The translations under genes and the position numbers were made by a program. DNA of 64,000 bases from Naegleria gruberi (taxonomy: Eukaryota): NCBI GenBank assembly GCA_000004985.1, contig GG738877.1; one strand, 5' to 3'. The notes below the pieces were generated by a model. It was not told the DNA's origin. It ran no database searches and saw nothing but the letters and a program-made list of their open reading frames with translations. Within the stretch, counting starts at the first letter, position 1; every line of letters starts with the position of its first letter. Below are positions 1-39,947 of this stretch, in pieces.

Positions 1-983
1 CTCAAAAGAAGATTAAGAAATACATTATCAAACACTTCTTGAATGTCAAGATGGATATTTACACAGATGTTACAGCAGTACCACCAAATCCTCACATTCC
101 AAAGAATATTCCAAAAGAAAAATTGGAAGAACCCCAAATGGATATCAGAAAGTGGAAGGAGGCCAAAAAGTTTACCAAACAATTAGATAATCCATTTGAT
201 GTCAAGTTTGAACTTTTGGATTGGCCAAGTTTAGAAATTGCTAGACAATTGACAATCATTGAGGCAAAACTCTTCAAAAAGATTGAACCAAAAGAATTTT
301 TCGGCTCAGCTTGGACTGACAAAGAGTACAAGCAAGAACTTGCACCAACACTGTGTGCAATAACTGAGAGAACTAACAATGTTAGTTTCTGGGTTAGAAA
401 CAAGATACTTTTGGAGCCAAATTTGGAAATTAGAAAGAAAATTATGAAGAAATTTGTGGACATCCTTAGAGAGTTGAAAGAACTTCGAAACTATACCTCA
501 ATCATTCAAATCACATCTGCATTTAATTCTGCCGAGATTCACAGACTGAAAAAGACAAAAGAAGGACTCAGCAAGCAAGATTTGGAACTTGTTGAAGAAT
601 GCAGTAATTTGGTGAACAATAATTCCAAGGCATTGAGAGAACAATTGGAACGAGAAGTTATCATTAATGGTGCCCCAGCAGTTCCTGTTGTAGCAATCTA
701 CTTTACTGATTTGGTATTTATTGAAGATGGTAATTTAGATTATTTTGAGCACAAATTGAACAAGAACAAGAAGCTAATCAACTTCCAAAAGAGAAGACTC
801 TACTATAATACTGTCAATACTATCAAGACTCTTCAAACCAAATCCAAATACATTCTACAACCTCTTCCTTATCTTCACTATGTACTCAAGGAAGAAATTG
901 TGCAAAATATCAAGACAGATGAGAAGGCCCTCTTTGATTTATCTCTCAAAGTTGAACCAAGAGCTCCAGCTACTAACAAATAA
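1..983 (+). CDS. RasGEF (Cdc25-homology catalytic domain) protein, 3' portion; the gene begins upstream of the window
   Basis: The frame is open from nt 3. The ORF-track start at 39 is TTG, not ATG. The sequence carries the RasGEF signature LEIARQLTIIEAKLFKKIEPKEF...FWVRNKIL...AVPVVAIYFTDLVFIEDGN. Stop is TAA at 981-983. Confidence 0.75.
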   Translation, partial: QKKIKKYIIKHFLNVKMDIYTDVTAVPPNPHIPKNIPKEKLEEPQMDIRKWKEAKKFTKQLDNPFDVKFELLDWPSLEIARQLTIIEAKLFKKIEPKEFFGSAWTDKEYKQELAPTLCAITERTNNVSFWVRNKILLEPNLEIRKKIMKKFVDILRELKELRNYTSIIQITSAFNSAEIHRLKKTKEGLSKQDLELVEECSNLVNNNSKALREQLEREVIINGAPAVPVVAIYFTDLVFIEDGNLDYFEHKLNKNKKLINFQKRRLYYNTVNTIKTLQTKSKYILQPLPYLHYVLKEEIVQNIKTDEKALFDLSLKVEPRAPATNK

Positions 984-30404: not shown

Positions 30405-33120
30405 TTAGATGTTCTTTACTTTCAGTGGAGCTCTTTCTTGATTATTGTTGCTTGGTTGTTGCAAATAGAGATTCTTATATTTTCTCAAATCCAAGTTCTC
30501 CTTTTCTAATTGTAAAATGTCTCTTGAATAAGTATTCTTAATTAATTCGTGGTTTTCTTCCTCCAATTCACGAATTCTCTTTTCCATCTCCACAAAATCT
30601 TCATTACATCTTCCTAACTCTGATTGTTGGGTTATTACTTGTTCGTGAAGCAGCTTGTTTTGAGCTGTCAACTTTTCAATCATGTCTGACATGGCAGTAA
30701 ACTTTTCTTGCTGTTGGAGCTCTTGAGGTCTTGCAATACTTCTCTTTTCGTTTAGCATTACTTCATATGTTTCCTTAGATCTCTTCAGAATCAAGTTGGA
30801 AGCCTCTAATTGTTCAACCTTGTCCTTCATACCTTTCATATCTTCAACTGTAAGTTTGAGATGATCATTTTGCTTGAGAAGAGTTTCAATTGTAACTTCA
30901 TTTGAGAGTCTCTTGGCTTCACTCTTTTCCAAACTAGATTTTAAGAGATCAATCTCTGCAGTCAAATTATGAATACGTTCGTTGAGCTCTGATGTGTCAG
31001 ATACTGAGACTGCTGGTCTTGAGGACAGATAATCATTAACACTTTCCAGTTCTGTAATTGTCTTCTTCAAATTTTGATTATTTCTTTCTAGGTGATCAAT
31101 CTTTTGGGATTGAGTAGTAAGCAACGAGTTTAACCTTGTATTAGCTTCTGTGAGTTCAGAATTACGAGTTTGCTCATTGAGGAGGTTCGACCCAACAATT
31201 TGTAACTCTGCTTCCTTTTGTTTGAGAGTAACAATTTGACCTTCATAAATATTAATTTGTGATTGCTTTTCTTGGTTGTCTCTGATTGCTCTTTGAAGTT
31301 GGTCTTGTAGTTGATCGAGTTCAGCAGCAAAAGACTTGGTTTGCTCTTCACGTTCTTCCAAAGAACGGATAGCAGCATGTAATTGAAGAGTGGCTTCCTC
31401 CAACTTGCAAGAAATATTTTCACAAAAAGCTGACTTTTCTTTGAGTTCTGATTCCACTGCTTCACAATGTTGTCTTCCACTGTTGAGTTCTTCACTCAAA
31501 TGATTAATATCAGATTGCTTGTTATCAATTTCTGACATTAATTGCTTATTGTGAGCATCTAATTGGTCAAGAGCAGACTCTAACATCTTTGTGTGGTTTG
31601 TAGCAGATTGGTATTCTTGAATAAATGCAGATAAGTGAGCTTGTTTTTCTTCATTTTCTCTTGTGAGTGTTTCATTAATTTCTCTATACTTTTCAGAAGC
31701 TTCTCTTTCTCTTTCGAATGAATTTTTCACTTCTTCAAGCTCATTTGTCATTCTTTCCAAGTCTTTGAGCAACTTTTGTTGATTCAAAATCTTTTCTTGA
31801 TGTCCCTCAAGCTTGACATTCTTTTTCTTCAATTCTTTGAGCTCCTTATCAAGGACTTGTTGAGTCTTTTGGAGATCTGATTTCTCTTGAGTGATTTTCT
31901 TACACTTCTCTTCAATCTTTGCATACTTCTTCTTCATATCAGCTATTTCAACAGCAAGTGGATTCTTTTTCTTTTCCTTCTCAAGTAAATTCTTTTGCTT
32001 CAAGATATCTTGATTGGTATTGTTAATTTGATTAATAACATCTCTGAGGTAGTTATTTTCATTTTGGAGTTCGCCCAAAACACTATCTCTTTCAAGAATA
32101 CCTTGTTCCAAGAAGAATAACTGTTCTTGGAATTGCATGAGTTGTTGTTGAGCTCTGATTTCAGAAGGGTCAGTGGAAGAATGGGATGAATGAGTGGAAG
32201 TGTTTAACAATTGATTTTGATCTGAAATAACACTGGAATTAGATGTTGGTGTGACAGTAGGGGTAACCTTTTGTGTAGGTTGCTTTGGAATGTTTGGTTT
32301 CTTTCTCAGTTTTGAATTATCAGCATTGTTAGTTGAGTTAACCATAGATGTATTTGGTTTAATTGCTGGAGCAGTAATATTCGAAAGGGTGGATTGACTA
32401 ACAGAAGCTCTTCTAGAAATACTCTTTCTAGAAGCCAAGCTTAATCTGTTTGATGAAGCACCAGAGGATGTTGTGGAGGAAGATGATTGGGAAAGTCTTG
32501 ACGAATTCATATTAGTGGACGAAACAAATGATTTCTTATCATTCAAAGTGTTAAATTTTCTCTTCTTTGCCACTTGTTCTTCTTCATAGGAAGAGGAGGA
32601 AACAAGCAATGGATTTGGCGAATGTGGATAAAAAAAGTTTTGAGCATCATTAAACCCATCTCCCACCGAATTGTGTTGAAAGGCAAGTTGTTGTGGTTGC
32701 ATCATCATTTGATAGTTGTTGTTGTTGTTGTGGTTGTTGTGGTTGCTGATGATGATAATTACTCGAATCAGAAACAGCATCGAATATATTATCAGATAAG
32801 GGATGATGAAGGGAGGAAGGCATTGGTGTGGAGACATATTCTTGATATTCTTGTTGATGGTCTACTTCTTCTCTAGCCACCTGTTGTTGTTGTTGTTGTT
32901 CATTGTTATTATTATTCATCATCATTTGTTGTTGCATCATCATTACATATTGTTGATGTTGTGCTTCGATTGTGGAGGCAGCAGATGGAGGCGAATCAAA
33001 TACTGAGGCCGGATCGATATTGTGGAGGATGGGTGTTGTTTCTTCTCCTTGTGATGAGAGGCATGGGCTTATCACAAAGTCATTGTCTGCTGCAGGGGAT
33101 GTTGTTTGATGTTGTTGCAT
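30405..33120 (-). CDS. long coiled-coil protein with a Q/N-rich N-terminus; the reading frame is interrupted once inside a CAA/AAC repeat (probable indel)
   Basis: ATG at 33120 (MQQHQTTSPAADN). The sensible frame runs to about 32700 (..SDSSNYHHQQPQQPQQQQQ). It then shifts by 1 nt into the frame of the 810-aa ORF 30405..32837 (..YQMMMQPQQLAFQHNSVGDGF.. then about 600 aa of heptad-rich coiled coil). No phase-compatible intron is available; the only GT..AG candidate is 17 nt and gives the wrong frame. Confidence 0.55.
32708..32746. repeat. imperfect (GTT/CAA)n trinucleotide microsatellite inside the coiled-coil gene
   Basis: The plus strand reads gttgttgttgttgttgtggttgttgtggttg. This is the site of the frame discontinuity in the coiled-coil gene. 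Confidence 0.7.
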
Positions 33121-33709: not shown

Positions 33710-36700
33710 ATGCCACCAAACAAAACACTCCCACACATAATTTTACTTCTTGCACTCCTCATTATGACATGTTCTGTTGTTCATTCTCAACTCGTGCTCT
33801 ATAACATGACAACTATAGCAGGAGGTGGAATTGATTTAAAAAATAGTAATTTAGCATTGTATTTCAAGTTGTCAAATCCGCACAGCATGGCTGTTAACAC
33901 AATTGGTGAAATTTTCATTTCAGATACGGCCAATCATCGAATTCTAAAGGTTTTAACGAATGGTACTGTGGAAGTAATTGGTGGAAATGGAATTTCTGGA
34001 TTTAGTGGAGATGGTGAATTGGCAATTAATGCCAAGTTGAATCGTCCAACTAAAATTGTCGTAGATTCAGCAGGGAGAGTTGTTTTTTGTGATAATTCGA
34101 ATAATAGAATTCGTATGATTTCGAATAATGGTACTATTTCAACTATTGCAGGAAGTGGTACTGGATTTGTACTGGGGGATGGTGGGTTGGCTACTAATGC
34201 AATTTTAAATATGCCTACAGGTCTGACAATCAATTCAATTGGTGAAATTTTGATTGCTGACACTAGTAACTTTAAAATTCGAAAGATTGATCTGAATGGA
34301 ATCATTACCACAATTGCTGGATCTGGAAATCAAGGTTTTGAAGGAGATGGAGGATTAGCAACAAGTGCCCCACTTAATTTTCCAGCTGATGTTTCTGTTC
34401 ATCCCACTACCAATGAAGTTTTCATAGCAGATTCGAATAATCATTGTGTCCGTAAAATCTTGACTAATGGTACCATTTTTACAGTTGCAGGAATATGTGG
34501 TGCTCAGGGCCAATCATCAGATGGCGGACTAGCTATCAACTCACGTCTAAATTACCCAATTGGAGTTGCAATCAGCTCAACAGGTGATATTTTCATTGCT
34601 GAAAGAGACAATAGCAAAGTTCGTAAGGTTTCTTCTAGCACTGGAATAATTTCAACTTTTGCAGGAAATGGAGTTTTTGGATTTATGGGAGATGGTAAAG
34701 CAGCTGTGAATGCATCAATCTACAATCCTTACAATGTTGCTTTCAATTCTGCAGGTGAAGCTTTCATTTCTGACTATGGTTCAGGAAAGATTCGTAAAGT
34801 TTCTCTGAATGGAATAATAACAACAGTTGTGGGAGAGTACTTGCAGAGTCAAGATGGTAAATTAGCAACTGATGTTGTATTAAATACCCCAAAGGGTGTT
34901 GCAATTAGTCCATCTGGAGAGGTTTACTTTGCCGATTCTGATAAATATGCTATTCGAAAGATAACACTTTCTGGAACGATAATAACAATTGCAGGATCTG
35001 GATTATATGGATTTGCTGGAGACAATGGATACTCTTCACAATTGAGTAATTCATATGACATTTTCATCAACTCGCTTGGTGAAGCATTCATTGCTGACAC
35101 TTATAATCATAGAATTAGAAAGATTGATGTTAACGGAATAATAATGACAATTGCAGGTATTGTAACTTCAGGATTTAGTGGAGATGGTGGTTTAGCAACA
35201 AAGGCAGAACTATTTGAACCGTATGGAGTTGTAACTAGCTCTTCAGGAGATGTATTTATTGCAGACACGAGCAATTGTAGAATTCGTAAAGTTTCGTCAA
35301 GTACTGGAATAATTACTACAGTGGCCGGTGGTACATGTGGGTTTGGAGATAATGTTTTGGCTGTCGATGCTCAATTGAACACTCCGTATGGAATTTCAGT
35401 CAATTCGAAAGGAGAATTATTCATTGCTGACACTAATAATCATAGAATTAGAAAGGTTTCGTCTAGTGGGTTTATTTCTACCATTGCTGGTAATGGAGTT
35501 GGAGGATTTAGTGGAGACGGTGGATTGGCAACTAATGCTAACTTATTCAAACCAAGTAAGGTCGTGGTCAACTCTATTGGTGAAATTTTTATTGCTGACT
35601 CTTCCACAAATAGAATTCGTAAAATTTTGACAAATGGAACAATTATCACAATAGCAGGAAATGGAAATAGCGGATTCAACGGTGATGAAGCAGATGCTAC
35701 AAATTCTCAATTGGGTTCTCCATATGGAATTGCACTAAGCTCAACTGGAGAAATTTATATTTCTGATCAAGGTAATAATAGAATTCGTAAACTAGTTCCA
35801 TATTGTGTTAATCAGGGTACATTAGTGAACGGATCTTGTTTCTACACAGATTACAATAATAATTCAACCAAGGATAATTCCAATGTATCCAATAATAATC
35901 AAATATTGGCAGTAGTGTTACCATCCGTTCTCGTTCCTGTATTTTGCATTGTTGCTGGTATAGTTGTGGTTTTATTGATTTGTTGTGTTATTTTCAGTAA
36001 GAGAACAAGAAAAGAAAAGTCAACTGAAAAAGTAGAGTCTGTTCCAAGAGATTTGGAAATGGCAATAGAAAGTCAAACACTTCAAACAATGGAAAGTGTC
36101 AAATCAGAACCCACAGATTTCCCATCAGAGCAAAGTTTGTACTTCCAATCAATGGTATCAAGCCAGTACAAGTCAGTAGCTTCAGAATCTTCCAGTAATA
36201 ATGCAGCTTCCAAATATAATATATTAGAAAAGATTGGATCTGGTGCATTTGGTTCTGTTTTCAGAGTAGAAGTCAAGAAAACAGGTGATATTAAGGCAGT
36301 TAAGGCACTGAAATATGTTGATCACGATGATTTGAACAATATCATGAAGGAAGGAATTCAACTTTTGAAAATGGATCATCCAAACATTGTCAAAGTCAAT
36401 GATATGTTTGTAGATAGTTCTCAATTGGTATTTATTGAAATGGAATTCTATGCCTATGGTGATTTAAGCACCCTGATTCAAGACACGAATACCATTCACT
36501 CAGAAATATTATTACGAAAAATACTTGAACAATCATGCCAAGCTCTCCAATATATTCATGAAAATCTTAAGATTGTTCACAGAGATATCAAACCATCAAA
36601 TATCTTCCTCAAATCAATTGATTTAGCAAATGATGATATTCATATTGTATTGGCTGATTTTGGATTAGCCAAGGATACACAGGGATCCATGGCCAAATCA

Positions 36701-37000
36701 TTTGCTGGAACTCCTCTTTACATGCCACTTGAATTGAGTCTAGGAGTTAATTACACATTCAATGCTGATGTCTATTCACTTGGTGTCACCATGTATCAAC
36801 TCATGACTAAGGATGTACAAACCTCAATAAGCTATCTCTACATGAACAAAAATTCTATTGAAACCAAACAAATATTGAGAAGTAAGATGGAAGCACCGAA
36901 TACTTATTCAGATCAATTGATTGATGTTGTTTTAAATATGATTGAAAAGGATATGGAAAAGAGACCATCAGAAGTTGACGTTCTCAATCAAATGAAATGA
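33710..37000 (+). CDS. receptor-type Ser/Thr protein kinase with an extracellular NHL-repeat beta-propeller region (1096 aa)
   Basis: ATG at 33710, signal peptide MPPNKTLPHIILLLALLIMTCSVVHS. About 14 NHL-type repeats follow the pattern (hydrophobic)xxADxxNHRIRK...GxIxTIAGxGxxGFxGDGGLAT. A transmembrane segment ILAVVLPSVLVPVFCIVAGIVVVLLICCVIF follows. The kinase domain reads GSGAFGSVFRVEVKKTGDIKAVK...HRDIKPSNIFL...DFGLAKD...GTPLYMPLE. Confidence 0.85.
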   Translation: MPPNKTLPHIILLLALLIMTCSVVHSQLVLYNMTTIAGGGIDLKNSNLALYFKLSNPHSMAVNTIGEIFISDTANHRILKVLTNGTVEVIGGNGISGFSGDGELAINAKLNRPTKIVVDSAGRVVFCDNSNNRIRMISNNGTISTIAGSGTGFVLGDGGLATNAILNMPTGLTINSIGEILIADTSNFKIRKIDLNGIITTIAGSGNQGFEGDGGLATSAPLNFPADVSVHPTTNEVFIADSNNHCVRKILTNGTIFTVAGICGAQGQSSDGGLAINSRLNYPIGVAISSTGDIFIAERDNSKVRKVSSSTGIISTFAGNGVFGFMGDGKAAVNASIYNPYNVAFNSAGEAFISDYGSGKIRKVSLNGIITTVVGEYLQSQDGKLATDVVLNTPKGVAISPSGEVYFADSDKYAIRKITLSGTIITIAGSGLYGFAGDNGYSSQLSNSYDIFINSLGEAFIADTYNHRIRKIDVNGIIMTIAGIVTSGFSGDGGLATKAELFEPYGVVTSSSGDVFIADTSNCRIRKVSSSTGIITTVAGGTCGFGDNVLAVDAQLNTPYGISVNSKGELFIADTNNHRIRKVSSSGFISTIAGNGVGGFSGDGGLATNANLFKPSKVVVNSIGEIFIADSSTNRIRKILTNGTIITIAGNGNSGFNGDEADATNSQLGSPYGIALSSTGEIYISDQGNNRIRKLVPYCVNQGTLVNGSCFYTDYNNNSTKDNSNVSNNNQILAVVLPSVLVPVFCIVAGIVVVLLICCVIFSKRTRKEKSTEKVESVPRDLEMAIESQTLQTMESVKSEPTDFPSEQSLYFQSMVSSQYKSVASESSSNNAASKYNILEKIGSGAFGSVFRVEVKKTGDIKAVKALKYVDHDDLNNIMKEGIQLLKMDHPNIVKVNDMFVDSSQLVFIEMEFYAYGDLSTLIQDTNTIHSEILLRKILEQSCQALQYIHENLKIVHRDIKPSNIFLKSIDLANDDIHIVLADFGLAKDTQGSMAKSFAGTPLYMPLELSLGVNYTFNADVYSLGVTMYQLMTKDVQTSISYLYMNKNSIETKQILRSKMEAPNTYSDQLIDVVLNMIEKDMEKRPSEVDVLNQMK

Positions 37001-37947: not shown

Positions 37948-39947
37948 ATGTCCCATCATCACTACACAGACTCCTCACAAATGACTGATGACGTTGTTAA
38001 TCAAGTCATTCAAGACGAAATGTCCATCGATCAAGATATGATGAATAATAATCAAGGCTCATCATCAGAACAACAACAACAAGCACATCACCAAGAACAT
38101 TTCGAAGAACAAATCCAACAATCTATATCTCAATCCAAAATACCGGCAACTTCCTTTTCTAAATTAGCCAGATTGCAACAACAACAAGAACCTGAATATG
38201 ATCAATTAGAGGCTAAGGAACTTGATGGAGAAGTATTTGATGTTCAGAGAAAGTATCAATTAGAAGCAATTAGAGGACAGGTATGTTTTATTAGAAGAAT
38301 ACAACAAGTGTTTATCAAAACTTTTTAATTATTCATGATAATGATGATACTGCTTGTTGTTGTTTAATGTTTGCTACAATCATGATTCTTGAACCACACA
38401 ATTCACAACACGTTTTATTTTGTATAAATCGTTACAATCATCATTATCAATTGACTATTTGATGATTTTACAAATATTAATAATAATAATTATCAAATCT
38501 ATTTAAAATTATAGGGAAGTTATGGTGTAGTTGCAAGTGCCATGAATACAAGAACTGGTCACAAATGCGCCGTTAAAAAGAACAAGAATGTCTTTCCAAG
38601 AGTTTCAAAGAATAATGAAGCCACTGTTCCTCACCGATCCAAAATGTCACAGAAGAGAATTTTGAGAGAATTGAAAATCCTCCAACACTTGTATCATCCA
38701 AATATTGTCAGATTGGTTGATGTTGTTCCTCCAAGAGATTACGATAGTTTCGGTGATGTTTACTTTGTTACAGAATTGATGGAAGGTAAGTACTGAATTG
38801 AGTAATAGTTTGGGAAAATGTTTTGTAACAATTATAACAATTATTGAATAACTATGGAAATGAATAGCCGATTTAAGAGATATCCTTTCCAGTGATCAAC
38901 CATTGACCGATCAACATGTTAAATATTTTGTATATCAAATTTTATTAGCTGTACATTATACACAAAGTGCAAATATTCTTCACAGGTATGTAGTTGAGTT
39001 GTTGAATAGTTTTAAATTTATTCTTTTAATGCAGAGATTTGAAACCAGAAAACATTTTATTGAATAGCAATTGTGAATTAAAGATTTGTGACTTTGGACT
39101 TGCCAGAGGAATTGATTTTGATCAAGATCCTAGAATGAGTACAAACTATGTACAAACTCGTTGGTACAGAGCTCCTGAATTGATTTTAAATAATGATATT
39201 GTTTCTAAGGAAACTGATATGTGGTCAATCGGATGTATTATGGCTGAATTGATGGGAAGAAAGGTTTTATTTAGAGGAACTTGTGCAGTTGACCAAATGA
39301 GACGTATTGTCACAACACTGGGTACACCAAATGCTGAAGATATCAAGGGATCTGATCAAGGTATTGAATTCATGGCAACTCTTCCAAAATCTGAAGGAAA
39401 AGATTTTTTCAAACTCTTCTCCAATTGTAATGTACTTGCCATTGATTTGTTAAAGAGAATGTTAGAATTCAATCATGAAAAGAGAATTACAACAGAACAA
39501 GCTATTCGTCATCAATACTTTGCTGACTTGTTCGAAGAAAGTGATATTGTCAATTGTGATGCTCTCTTTGATTTTTCATGGGAAGATAAGTTAATTGACT
39601 CTGAAGATATCAAACGTGAATGTTATGATTCAATTATCAAATATAGGAAGGATAAGACAAATAATAGAAATTCATACATGTATCCAAATATTTCACTTAT
39701 TGAACAAAAGAAGAAGATGATCAGAGAAAGAAGACAAAAAGAACAATTAGCTAAGCAACAACAAGAAGAAGTTCTGAGAAAGCAAAAGGAAGAACAATTA
39801 AAGAAACAACAAGATGAAGAAGATGAAAGAAATAGACAAGAACAATCCAATTCAACATCAACAAGCTCTCAAACCAGAGAACGAAAAGGAACAGGAACTG
39901 GAGGTAAATTCAAACTTTTCAAGAAAGTTAGAGAATTACTTCAATAA
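37948..39947 (+). CDS. mitogen-activated protein kinase (ERK-like) with a T-N-Y activation-loop motif; 4 exons, ~545 aa
   Basis: Exons are 37948..38280, 38515..38785, 38868..38985 and 39035..39947. Introns are 234 nt (GTATGT..ATAG), 82 nt (GTAAGT..ATAG) and 49 nt (GTATGT..GCAG), and phases are consistent. The splices restore kinase subdomains: IRGQ|GSYGVVASAM, HRDLKPENILLN and KICDFGLARG. The activation loop reads RMSTNYVQTRWYRAPE. There is a His/Gln-rich N-terminal extension and a K/E/Q-rich C-terminus. Confidence 0.85.

What the first reader, a model, noticed from the sequence alone, without database searches (positions are those of the whole stretch)
33710..37000. Type-I receptor kinase with an extracellular double NHL beta-propeller
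The protein has a signal peptide, about 14 NHL repeats (enough for two 6/7-bladed propellers), a single transmembrane segment and a cytoplasmic Ser/Thr kinase. This is the topological mirror of the mycobacterial PknD sensor kinase (kinase inside, NHL propeller outside). It is not a common eukaryotic receptor-kinase architecture. The ligand-binding propeller suggests an environmental or cell-cell sensing role.
Basis: partly seen in the sequence, partly recalled or inferred. Interest (0 to 1): 0.5.

Follow-up and report, generated by a model that had tools for sequence, protein, structure and literature searches.

The report
Naegleria receptor kinase with double NHL propeller
This is a real, intact gene of the amoeba Naegleria gruberi for a cell-surface receptor kinase whose outer part is two six-bladed NHL propellers; it is one member of an undescribed receptor-kinase family known so far only from Naegleria and its relative Willaertia, and it is analogous to bacterial PknD rather than related to it.

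Summary
Window 33710-37000 (+) is one uninterrupted 1096-aa ORF. It encodes a signal peptide, 12 NHL blades (not about 14), one transmembrane helix and an apparently active Ser/Thr kinase.

An AlphaFold model (pLDDT 86.8) and Foldseek indicate two six-bladed propellers.

The gene is Naegleria gruberi NAEGRDRAFT_58454, annotated only as 'predicted protein'. The public model starts 59 residues too late and so lacks the signal peptide.

It is not an isolated oddity. An exhaustive profile search found at least 13 further NHL-TM-kinase proteins in N. gruberi, N. fowleri and N. lovaniensis. They share 47-53% kinase identity with this protein. Most also carry a juxtamembrane motif of the form DFPS[DE]xSxxF.

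The same kinase cassette also sits behind EGF-like, GPS-motif, RCC1-like and Cys-rich ectodomains.

The kinase profile is closest to NEK, CaMK and ULK kinases. No TKL or receptor tyrosine kinase is among its best 60 matches to solved structures.

The PknD sensor is only a weak match (E 2.7e-13, against 1e-74 for a bacterial long-blade NHL domain). The resemblance to PknD is therefore convergent architecture.

A bacterial origin of the NHL array is plausible but could not be resolved. The ligand and the function are unknown.

Verdict: new variant of a known kind, moderate interest.

The parts
33710..37000 (+). Complete single-exon CDS (1096 aa plus stop) of the receptor kinase, equal to N. gruberi NAEGRDRAFT_58454 / XP_002675547.1 extended by 59 N-terminal residues
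   Evidence: ORF list. 100% identity to P0001 over 95% of the query. Accessions.
33710..33787 (+). Signal peptide, aa 1-26 (MPPNKTLPHIILLLALLIMTCSVVHS, then Q)
   Evidence: Hydrophobic segment at residues 5-31. Small residues at -3 and -1 (V, S). The predicted mature N-terminus, LVLYNMTTIAGGG, resembles that of paralogue P0255, SLLLYNITTIAGGG. Rule-based only; SignalP was not run.
33788..34801 (+). NHL propeller 1: blades 1-6, aa 27-364
   Evidence: Blade boundaries. AF2 predicts four strands per blade, and pLDDT dips at the propeller junction. Half of the model superposes on six-bladed NHL propellers: 6gc1 at 2.2 A and 7djl at 2.6 A.
34802..35794 (+). NHL propeller 2: blades 7-12, aa 365-695
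   Evidence: The best PDB sequence match (9ifo NHL domain, 1026-1255) falls at aa 466-696.
35795..35902 (+). Short Cys-pair linker (PYCVNQGTLVNGSC) and an Asn/Ser-rich glycosylated stalk, aa 696-731. Paralogues carry EGF-like modules at this position.
   Evidence: Cys699 and Cys710, with four sequons between 707 and 725. Equivalent 'PYC...' linkers followed by EGF-like repeats occur in P0244, P0255 and P0026.
35903..35995 (+). Single transmembrane helix, aa 732-762 (ILAVVLPSVLVPVFCIVAGIVVVLLICCVIF), followed by SKRTRKEK
   Evidence: Kyte-Doolittle maximum 3.44 in the window 729-767. Its uninterrupted hydrophobic stretch is I732-F762 (read from the sequence). The 'VVP' start of the TM is shared with the family.
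35996..36214 (+). Juxtamembrane region, aa 763-835, predicted to be disordered, carrying the family motifs
   Evidence: AF2 pLDDT is 30-45 across this region. Family alignment.
36116..36151 (+). Conserved juxtamembrane linear motif DFPSEQSLYFQS (aa 803-814)
   Evidence: Regex hits and alignment in most close family members and in loci L001 and L002.
36215..36988 (+). Ser/Thr protein kinase domain, aa 836-1093, with G-loop GSGAFGSV, beta3 Lys (AVK), HRDIKPSN, DFG and a PLE variant of APE
   Evidence: Pfam Pkinase E 1.7e-50. Motifs. AF2 pLDDT is about 90 over the domain.

Best explanation
The gene encodes a single-pass type-I receptor serine/threonine kinase of Naegleria gruberi.

Anatomy. After the signal peptide is cut off, about 700 glycosylated residues face outward as two tandem six-bladed NHL beta-propellers. 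A short disulfide-type linker and stalk lead to one TM helix. Inside the cell, a disordered juxtamembrane segment with a conserved DFPS[DE]xSxxF motif is followed by a catalytically competent kinase.

Family. It is the minimal member of a receptor-kinase family seen so far only in Naegleria and Willaertia. It has no EGF-like module and no GPS motif. In this family one TM-juxtamembrane-kinase cassette is combined with interchangeable ectodomains.

Inferred mechanism. The propellers bind an extracellular ligand or surface, whether protein, glycan or another cell. Binding clusters or re-orients receptor molecules. The kinases then trans-phosphorylate their activation loops and the juxtamembrane segment, which recruits or phosphorylates cytoplasmic targets.

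Status of each step. The architecture, topology cues, fold, intact catalytic residues and family membership are shown by sequence and prediction. Ligand binding, dimerisation and downstream signalling are inferred.
For: Architecture:
- One ORF.
- NHL, TEN_NHL and Pkinase all score far above Pfam cutoffs.
- Only two hydrophobic segments are present, with positive charges after the second.
- Sequons number 10 outside and 1 inside.

Fold:
- AF2 gives pLDDT 86.8 and 12 four-stranded blades.
- Foldseek superposes about 340-350 columns on six-bladed NHL propellers at 2.2-2.6 A. TM-score normalised to the query is about 0.42, meaning half of the model.

Kinase:
- All catalytic motifs are intact and the catalytic loop is of the Ser/Thr type (HRDIKPSN).
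- The kinase domain is modelled confidently.

Family:
- The profile search returns long proteins with a C-terminal kinase of this type.
- Thirteen have NHL repeats plus a TM (P0242-P0248, P0253, P0255, P0257, P0262, P0271, P0277). P0390, P0393 and P0400 are longer models from the same clusters.
- The ten with the closest kinases (48-52% identity to the query) carry the juxtamembrane motif. P0262 and P0277, with similar kinases, have only a degenerate form of it. P0271, whose kinase is divergent (38% identity), lacks it.
- They come from N. gruberi, N. fowleri and N. lovaniensis.
- Metagenome locus L002 shows a smaller NHL-TM-motif-kinase gene.
- Pfam confirms NHL, EGF and kinase in the paralogues.
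Against: - There is no experimental or expression data.
- The signal peptide and TM are called by hydropathy and simple rules only, not by SignalP or DeepTMHMM.
- The relative arrangement of the two propellers is uncertain (pTM 0.57).
- No ligand is known.
- No one-to-one orthologue was seen in N. fowleri or N. lovaniensis. All family kinases are at most 53% identical. This particular paralogue may therefore be lineage-specific and dispensable.
- The APE motif is PLE here, against SPE in the rest of the family.
Confidence: 0.8

Rival explanations
1. It is primarily an adhesion or recognition molecule, for example for prey bacteria, substrate or other amoebae. By analogy with the teneurin NHL domain, the NHL propellers would mediate binding. 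The kinase would only tune adhesion locally rather than relay a soluble-ligand signal.
For: - The closest solved NHL domains are those of teneurins and teneurin-like surface proteins.
- N. gruberi has a kinase-less paralogue, P0026, with 16 NHL blades, a stalk and a C-terminal hydrophobic tail.
- Paralogues combine NHL with teneurin-type EGF repeats and GPS motifs, which are typical of adhesion receptors.
Against: This does not exclude the receptor-kinase model; it differs only in the kind of ligand. The kinase is fully intact and the juxtamembrane motif is conserved, which argues for signalling output.
Confidence: 0.3
2. It is a PknD-type sensor kinase gene acquired from bacteria and rearranged, that is, homologous to PknD rather than convergent with it.
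For: - Bacteria hold the closest NHL arrays outside Naegleria, at 44-47% identity over about 670 aa.
- Bacterial Hanks-kinase models hit the kinase: PknB-type E 2e-31 and mad6 1.3e-62.
Against: - The domain order is reversed.
- The PknD sensor matches at only E 2.7e-13.
- All bacterial NCBIfam kinase models score far below their cutoffs, for example 110 bits against 450.
- The family profile's best solved relatives are eukaryotic NEK2, CaMK1 and ULK.
- The same kinase cassette sits behind non-NHL ectodomains in Naegleria and Willaertia. The fusion therefore arose inside the eukaryote.
- GC3 is like that of neighbouring genes: 0.21-0.29 against 0.22-0.33.
Confidence: 0.03
3. The ectodomain is an extracellular enzyme, a lactonase-, lyase- or phosphatase-type six-bladed propeller, rather than a binding module.
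For: - There are weak Pfam hits to Vgb_lyase (E 2.6e-10) and PhoX (1.3e-5).
- Bacterial homologues carry the automatic label 'sugar lactone lactonase YvrE'.
Against: - The Vgb_lyase score is below its cutoff (40 bits against 50), and it comes from blade-level similarity.
- PhoX barely reaches its cutoff (25 bits against 24), with no stretch significant on its own.
- The best matches are non-enzymatic NHL domains.
- No active-site residues could be identified.
Confidence: 0.05
4. It is a gene-model or assembly artefact that joins two genes, or a decaying pseudogene.
For: The public model differs at the 5' end. Two N. gruberi relatives, P0121 and P0124, are annotated as kinase-only fragments.
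Against: - The frame stays open for 3.3 kb, with all domains intact.
- The same order of parts is found in at least 13 other proteins of three species and in an independent metagenome contig.
Confidence: 0.02

Closest known systems
Mycobacterium tuberculosis PknD (Hanks kinase, TM, extracytoplasmic NHL propeller; sensor structure 1RWI/1RWL)
   Same: Kinase inside, one TM, NHL beta-propeller outside. It presumably signals by ligand-driven clustering of a rigid propeller.
   Different: - The N-to-C order is reversed: PknD has its kinase at the N-terminus.
- PknD has one propeller; this protein has two, with 54-57-aa blades.
- Sequence similarity of the sensor is weak (E 2.7e-13).
- The kinase is not specifically PknD-like.

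The relationship is analogy, not membership.
Uncharacterised Naegleria/Willaertia receptor kinases, e.g. N. gruberi XP_002678153.1 (P0243), XP_002673894.1 (P0255), N. fowleri XP_044563041.1 (P0393), N. lovaniensis XP_044550582.1 (P0248)
   Same: - NHL-type ectodomain.
- TM beginning with 'VVP'.
- Juxtamembrane DFPS[DE]xSxxF motif.
- Kinase 47-53% identical.
   Different: - This protein has 12 near-consensus blades and no EGF-like or GPS module.
- Most relatives have degenerate NHL arrays (28-35% identity to this ectodomain) plus one or more EGF-like repeats.
- Only P0255 (47.7%) and the kinase-less P0026 (44.7%) have similar arrays.
Bacterial long-blade NHL surface proteins, and the NHL domain of the Bacillus inaquosorum teneurin-like protein (9IFO; PMC13018210)
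   Same: The blade consensus is the same (GxGxxGFSGDGGxAxxAxLxxPxGVxVDxxGxxYIADxxNxRIRKV). Identity is 44-47% over about 670 aa.
   Different: Those proteins have no kinase. They are linked instead to Ig-like, PKD-type, FN3 or YD-shell domains (PMC13018210).
Plant RLK/Pelle receptor kinases and animal receptor Ser/Thr and Tyr kinases
   Same: Type-I single-pass receptor kinase logic: signal peptide, ligand-binding ectodomain, TM, juxtamembrane region, kinase.
   Different: The kinase is not TKL- or TK-like. The best profile matches are NEK2, CaMK1 and ULK1/3. To my knowledge, none of those receptor families has an NHL propeller ectodomain.
Tandem beta-propeller sensors: LRP5/6 YWTD pairs and the Bacteroides BT4663 hybrid two-component sensor
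   Same: Two consecutive propellers form an extracellular or periplasmic ligand-binding unit. Both appear among the Foldseek matches.
   Different: They use a different repeat family and a different output: a co-receptor tail, or a histidine kinase. TM-scores are low (0.26-0.29).

Membership tests
NHL-repeat beta-propeller (Pfam PF01436 / TEN_NHL PF25021) | Repeated NHL motif scoring above the Pfam gathering cutoffs | tested here: met
   NHL scores 216 bits against a cutoff of 20. TEN_NHL scores 237 bits against 27.1. Twelve blades were delimited.
NHL-repeat beta-propeller (Pfam PF01436 / TEN_NHL PF25021) | Six four-stranded blades closing into a propeller | tested here: met
   This rests on a predicted model only. 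AF2 pLDDT is 86.8, with 12 blades of four strands each. Superposition on NHLRC2 gives 2.2 A over 350 columns and on SOQ1 2.6 A over 336 columns, each covering half of the model.
Eukaryotic-type protein kinase, active Ser/Thr kinase | Pkinase domain with G-loop, beta3 Lys, alphaC Glu, HRDxKxxN, DFG and an APE-like motif | tested here: met
   Pkinase E 1.7e-50. GSGAFGSV, AVK, HRDIKPSN, DFG and PLE are present. Catalytic activity itself was not tested.
PknD-type bacterial sensor kinase | N-terminal cytoplasmic kinase, then TM, then a C-terminal NHL propeller | tested here: not met
   The order here is signal peptide, NHL, TM, kinase.
PknD-type bacterial sensor kinase | Sensor domain specifically similar to the PknD propeller (one six-bladed propeller) | tested here: not met
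   1rwi matches at E 2.7e-13, ranked below teneurin-like, SOQ1, NHLRC2 and TRIM NHL domains. This protein has two propellers with 54-57-aa blades.
PknD-type bacterial sensor kinase | Kinase domain orthologous to bacterial PknB/PknD kinases | tested here: not met
   NCBIfam PknB_PASTA scores 110 bits against a cutoff of 450, and the PknD model (PRK13184) 42 bits against 839. The best solved relatives are NEK2, CaMK1 and ULK.
TKL-group receptor kinases (plant RLK/Pelle-IRAK, TGF-beta receptors) and receptor tyrosine kinases | Kinase domain grouping with TKL or TK kinases | tested here: not met
   The top 60 PDB matches of the family profile are NEK, CaMK/CDPK, ULK and STE20 kinases, with single STK33 and PKR entries. 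No TKL or TK kinase is among them. No kinome-wide tree was built.
Naegleria/Willaertia receptor-kinase family (undescribed; defined here) | C-terminal kinase at least about 45% identical to family members and clearly separated from other kinases | tested here: met
   Identity to family members is 47-53%, then drops to 35% or less. Profile scores of the top members are 365-474 bits.
Naegleria/Willaertia receptor-kinase family (undescribed; defined here) | Single TM followed by the juxtamembrane motif DFPS[DE]xSxxF | tested here: met
   DFPSEQSLYFQS lies at residues 803-814. The motif is aligned in about 14 of the 21 other family sequences compared, including L001 and L002, and is absent or degenerate in the rest.
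Teneurin | Type-II TM with EGF repeats, FN-plug, NHL and YD-shell superfold | tested here: not met
   Only the NHL part matches. No YD, FN-plug or TTR hits were found, and the topology is type I.

The most novel reading that the evidence does not exclude
Naegleria and its relatives (Heterolobosea) invented receptor kinases independently of animals and plants. They did so by wiring one NEK/CaMK-like kinase cassette, with its own TM and juxtamembrane motif, to shuffled ectodomains.

Those ectodomains include bacterial-type NHL arrays, possibly acquired by lateral transfer. They also include GPS-motif modules resembling the autoproteolytic site of adhesion GPCRs.

The window gene would be the simplest member of the family, with a pure double NHL propeller. 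That would make it the best entry point for finding the ligand class sensed by the whole family, for example bacterial prey or kin surfaces.
Probability: 0.35. Interest if true: 0.6.

Novelty: new variant of a known kind. Interest (0 to 1): 0.38.

Why it matters
Receptor kinases are best understood in animals (TK and TKL kinases) and plants (RLK/Pelle). A family in Discoba, a deeply separated eukaryotic lineage, built on a different kinase type would be another independent origin of the 'ligand-binding ectodomain, one TM, kinase' design. Its NHL, EGF-like, GPS-motif and RCC1-like ectodomains would add to that diversity.

N. fowleri, the brain-eating amoeba, has members of the same family. These surface kinases are candidate sensors or adhesion receptors, and they are potentially druggable.

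On a practical level, the public gene model should be extended by 59 codons at its 5' end so that it includes the signal peptide.

Tried and rejected
1. Paralogue loci. I looked for the genomic loci of the N. gruberi kinase-only paralogues P0121 and P0124, to see whether they are truncated receptor models. They are not on record.

2. Metagenome scan. The scan with the kinase family alignment used patterns that were too generic. It returned only distant kinases (41% identity or less) and did not even recover L002.

3. Literature. The N. gruberi genome paper (Cell 2010) is not held. Searches for Naegleria with NHL, receptor kinase or kinome found nothing that describes this family.

4. AlphaFold database. 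The afdb50 Foldseek library was unavailable. I therefore could not survey tandem NHL propellers across eukaryotes by structure.

5. Lateral-transfer test for the NHL array.
- The ectodomain is 44-47% identical to bacterial arrays. It is 45-48% identical to the two N. gruberi canonical arrays, P0026 and P0255.
- Its own blades are about 44% identical to each other. This level of identity may therefore reflect little more than the shared blade consensus, and cannot date or direct a transfer.
- GC3 is native-like.
- Result: inconclusive.

6. Repeat history. There is no 6-blade periodicity in blade similarity, so no evidence that propeller 2 is a recent copy of propeller 1. There is no DNA tandem repeat.

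7. Local paralogues. There are no NHL paralogues and no close kinase paralogues elsewhere in the window. The only others are a MAPK-like kinase and a kinase with a PH_3-type PH domain (PDK1-like in my reading).

8. PADLOC and NCBIfam. The defence-system kinase hits (mad6, PD-T4-6, PglW) are generic kinase-domain similarity and do not bear on a eukaryotic gene.

9. Juxtamembrane motif. It does not fold onto the kinase in the AF2 model, where pLDDT is 30-45. I treat it as a linear motif in a disordered region.
Full report
**What is there.**
- Window 33710-37000 (+) is one uninterrupted ORF of 1096 codons plus a stop. It is the longest ORF in the neighbourhood.
- The window is AT-rich, at about 34% GC.
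- It carries ordinary eukaryotic genes: a DDI1-like ubiquitin/aspartyl protease, a USP, a MAPK-like kinase, exportin-T, Sec6, and a kinase with a PH_3-type PH domain that I read as PDK1-like.
- The protein is 100% identical to Naegleria gruberi 'predicted protein' XP_002675547.1 / NAEGRDRAFT_58454 / UniProt D2VK55.
- That public model has 1037 aa and begins at Met60 of the window ORF. It therefore lacks the signal peptide and half of the first blade. The exact 1096-aa sequence is not in the protein collection.

**Checking the observation.**
- Pfam gives TEN_NHL (E 3e-70), NHL (4e-66, 8 stretches) and Pkinase (1.7e-50, residues 836-1093). All are far above their cutoffs.
- A hydropathy scan finds only two hydrophobic segments.
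  - Residues 5-31 have the shape of a signal peptide: a basic n-region, a Leu/Ile core, and VHS before Gln27.
  - The second segment is the window 729-767, whose hydrophobic stretch is I732-F762. It is followed by SKRTRKEK.
- N-glycosylation sequons number 10 in the ectodomain and 1 in the cytoplasmic part.
- The repeats number 12, not about 14. They are 54-57 aa long and each ends in the (R/K)I(R/L)K(I/V) strand.
- The blades average about 44% identity to each other, with no 6-blade periodicity. There is no DNA-level tandem repeat. The array is therefore old, not a recent amplification.

**Fold.**
- An AlphaFold2 model of residues 27-735, built with 19 homologues, has mean pLDDT 86.8 and shows 12 blades of four strands.
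- Confidence dips at the blade 6/7 junction. The pTM of 0.57 suggests two well-defined bodies whose relative orientation is uncertain.
- Foldseek against the PDB superposes about 340-350 columns on single six-bladed NHL propellers. NHLRC2 (6gc1) fits at 2.2 A and SOQ1 (7djl) at 2.6 A. TM-score normalised to the query is about 0.42, meaning half of the model. TM-score normalised to the target is 0.80 for SOQ1 entry 7djj and 0.84-0.87 for the designed Pizza6 proteins.
- The ectodomain is therefore best described as two six-bladed propellers: blades 1-6 (aa 27-364) and blades 7-12 (aa 365-695).
- A Cys pair (PYCVNQGTLVNGSC) and an Asn-rich stalk connect the propellers to the membrane.

**Kinase.**
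- All catalytic signatures are intact: GSGAFGSV, the beta3 Lys, HRDIKPSN (the Ser/Thr-type catalytic loop), DFG, and a PLE variant of APE.
- The domain is modelled with pLDDT of about 90. The juxtamembrane region is predicted to be disordered.
- A profile of the family matches NEK2 best (5e-35), then CaMK1, ULK3, NEK1, ULK1 and MST3. No TKL or TK kinase is among the best 60.
- Bacterial kinase models of NCBIfam score far below their cutoffs.

**It belongs to a family.**
- A word-based search with the cytoplasmic part found only four close relatives (47-53% identity) and then dropped to 35% or less.
- Two of those four lie on metagenome contigs.
  - L002 encodes a signal peptide, five NHL repeats, a TM, FDFPSDESNYF and then the kinase.
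  - L001 encodes a GPS motif (Pfam GPS, E 8.6e-5), a TM, SDFPSEFSMKF and then the kinase.
- An exhaustive HMMER search with the family profile against 1.84 billion representatives returned many long proteins with this kinase at the C-terminus.
- Thirteen of them have NHL repeats and a single TM (P0242-P0248, P0253, P0255, P0257, P0262, P0271, P0277). P0390, P0393 and P0400 are longer models from the same clusters.
  - The kinases of twelve are 48-52% identical to the query. That of P0271 is divergent, at 38%.
  - The ten with the closest kinases carry the juxtamembrane motif. P0262 and P0277 have only a degenerate form of it, and P0271 lacks it.
- These proteins come from N. gruberi, N. fowleri and N. 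lovaniensis. All are annotated as hypothetical or as generic kinases.
- Other members carry different ectodomains.
  - Some have EGF-like plus GPS-motif ectodomains.
  - Some have RCC1-like propellers plus an EGF-like repeat.
  - One, from Willaertia magna, has a Cys-rich ectodomain.
- The alignment of the TM-to-kinase segments shows a shared 'VVP' start of the TM, a basic stop-transfer sequence, an (I/V)E(L/M) element, the DFPS[DE]xSxxF motif and a DP(L/F)SRY lead-in to the kinase.
- The window gene is the minimal form. It has 12 near-consensus blades and no EGF-like or GPS module.
- No NHL paralogue lies in the window.

**Relation to PknD and to bacteria.**
- The PknD sensor domain (1rwi) is only a weak match (E 2.7e-13). 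A Bacillus teneurin-like protein matches at 1e-74, and SOQ1 and the Pizza designs at about 1e-30 (PMC13018210 for the 9ifo protein).
- Taken with the reversed domain order, the double propeller, the 54-57-aa blades and the eukaryote-like kinase, this makes the similarity to PknD one of design rather than descent.
- The NHL array itself is of the type that dominates bacterial surface proteins. It is 44-47% identical over about 670 aa to many bacterial proteins. That is about the same as to the two N. gruberi proteins with canonical arrays, P0255 (47.7%) and the kinase-less P0026 (44.7%).
- It is far more similar to these than to the degenerate NHL ectodomains of the other Naegleria receptor kinases, at 28-35%.
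- The protein's own blades are also about 44% identical to one another. These figures may therefore reflect little more than the blade consensus, and they cannot establish or date a transfer.
- Codon composition is native.
- A bacterial origin of the array is plausible but not shown.

**Mechanism.**
- Shown by sequence and prediction: a type-I membrane protein with an extracellular glycosylated double propeller and an intracellular kinase with every catalytic residue.
- Inferred: the propellers bind an external ligand or surface. Clustering of receptors then leads to trans-phosphorylation of the activation loop (DTQGSMAKSFAGT) and of the disordered juxtamembrane segment. The conserved motif in that segment would act as a docking or regulatory site.
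- An adhesion or recognition role is a variant of the same model. It is suggested by the teneurin-like NHL and EGF modules and the GPS motifs in paralogues, and by the kinase-less paralogue P0026.
- An enzymatic ectodomain, a PknD-derived gene and an artefactual fusion are all unlikely, for the reasons given under the rival explanations.

**Novelty and verdict.**
- The sequence is public but uncharacterised, and its public model is slightly truncated.
- I found no paper in the accessible library that describes Naegleria NHL receptor kinases.
- It is not a member of the PknD, plant RLK/Pelle or RTK families.
- It is a new variant of the general receptor-kinase kind, and one of a genus-wide family.
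- Interest is moderate. It is a tidy case of convergent receptor-kinase architecture in a deeply separated eukaryotic lineage, and its relatives in N. fowleri are worth following. It is not surprising enough, nor functionally defined enough, to rank high.

Noticed in passing
window 33710-33886: The public N. gruberi gene model (XP_002675547.1, 1037 aa) starts at Met60 of this ORF. It therefore lacks the signal peptide and half of blade 1. The ATG at 33710 is the first start codon after an upstream stop and restores a type-I topology.
   Followed up: yes
L001 96-1605; also P0249, P0255, P0257, P0265, P0270, P0272: The same kinase cassette sits behind a GPS motif, C..HL(T/S)xF(A/S), placed just before the TM. 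This resembles the autoproteolysis site of adhesion GPCRs and polycystin-1. Pfam GPS scores E 8.6e-5 for L001 and 3e-4 for P0265. A single-pass receptor that pairs a GPS motif with a kinase would be an unusual architecture and deserves its own look.
   Followed up: partly
P0260, P0261, P0263 (N. lovaniensis and relatives): Some family members have an extracellular RCC1-like propeller plus an EGF-like repeat in front of the TM and a more divergent kinase (about 35% identity, with an insert in the activation segment).
   Followed up: partly
P0026 (N. gruberi XP_002670673.1): A kinase-less paralogue. It has 16 canonical NHL blades, the same Cys-pair linker, a Ser/Thr/Pro-rich stalk and a C-terminal hydrophobic tail. 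The tail could be a GPI-anchor signal or a tail anchor.
   Followed up: partly
P0241, P0252, P0273: These are cytosolic proteins with two to four tandem kinase or pseudokinase domains that match the same family profile. P0252 looks as if it also carries Sel1-like repeats, judged by eye only. Their source organisms were not looked up.
   Followed up: no
window 37948-39947 (+): There is a MAPK-like kinase gene split over several ORFs, presumably by introns. Its first part is Gln-rich and includes a short poly-Q run. It lies about 950 bp downstream of the receptor kinase on the same strand and is unrelated to the family (32% identity over 90 aa).
   Followed up: partly
window 30405-33120 (-): The upstream neighbour on the opposite strand is an 810-aa protein that looks coiled-coil-rich by eye. 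It has poly-Asn and poly-Gln runs and no Pfam match. It diverges from the receptor gene across an intergenic region of about 600-900 bp.
   Followed up: no
window 36140-36997 (kinase domain): The PADLOC model mad6 (methylation-associated defence system kinase) scores 210 bits on the kinase domain. That is higher than Pfam Pkinase at 172 bits. I treated it as generic Hanks-kinase similarity, but the reason for the high score was not examined.
   Followed up: no
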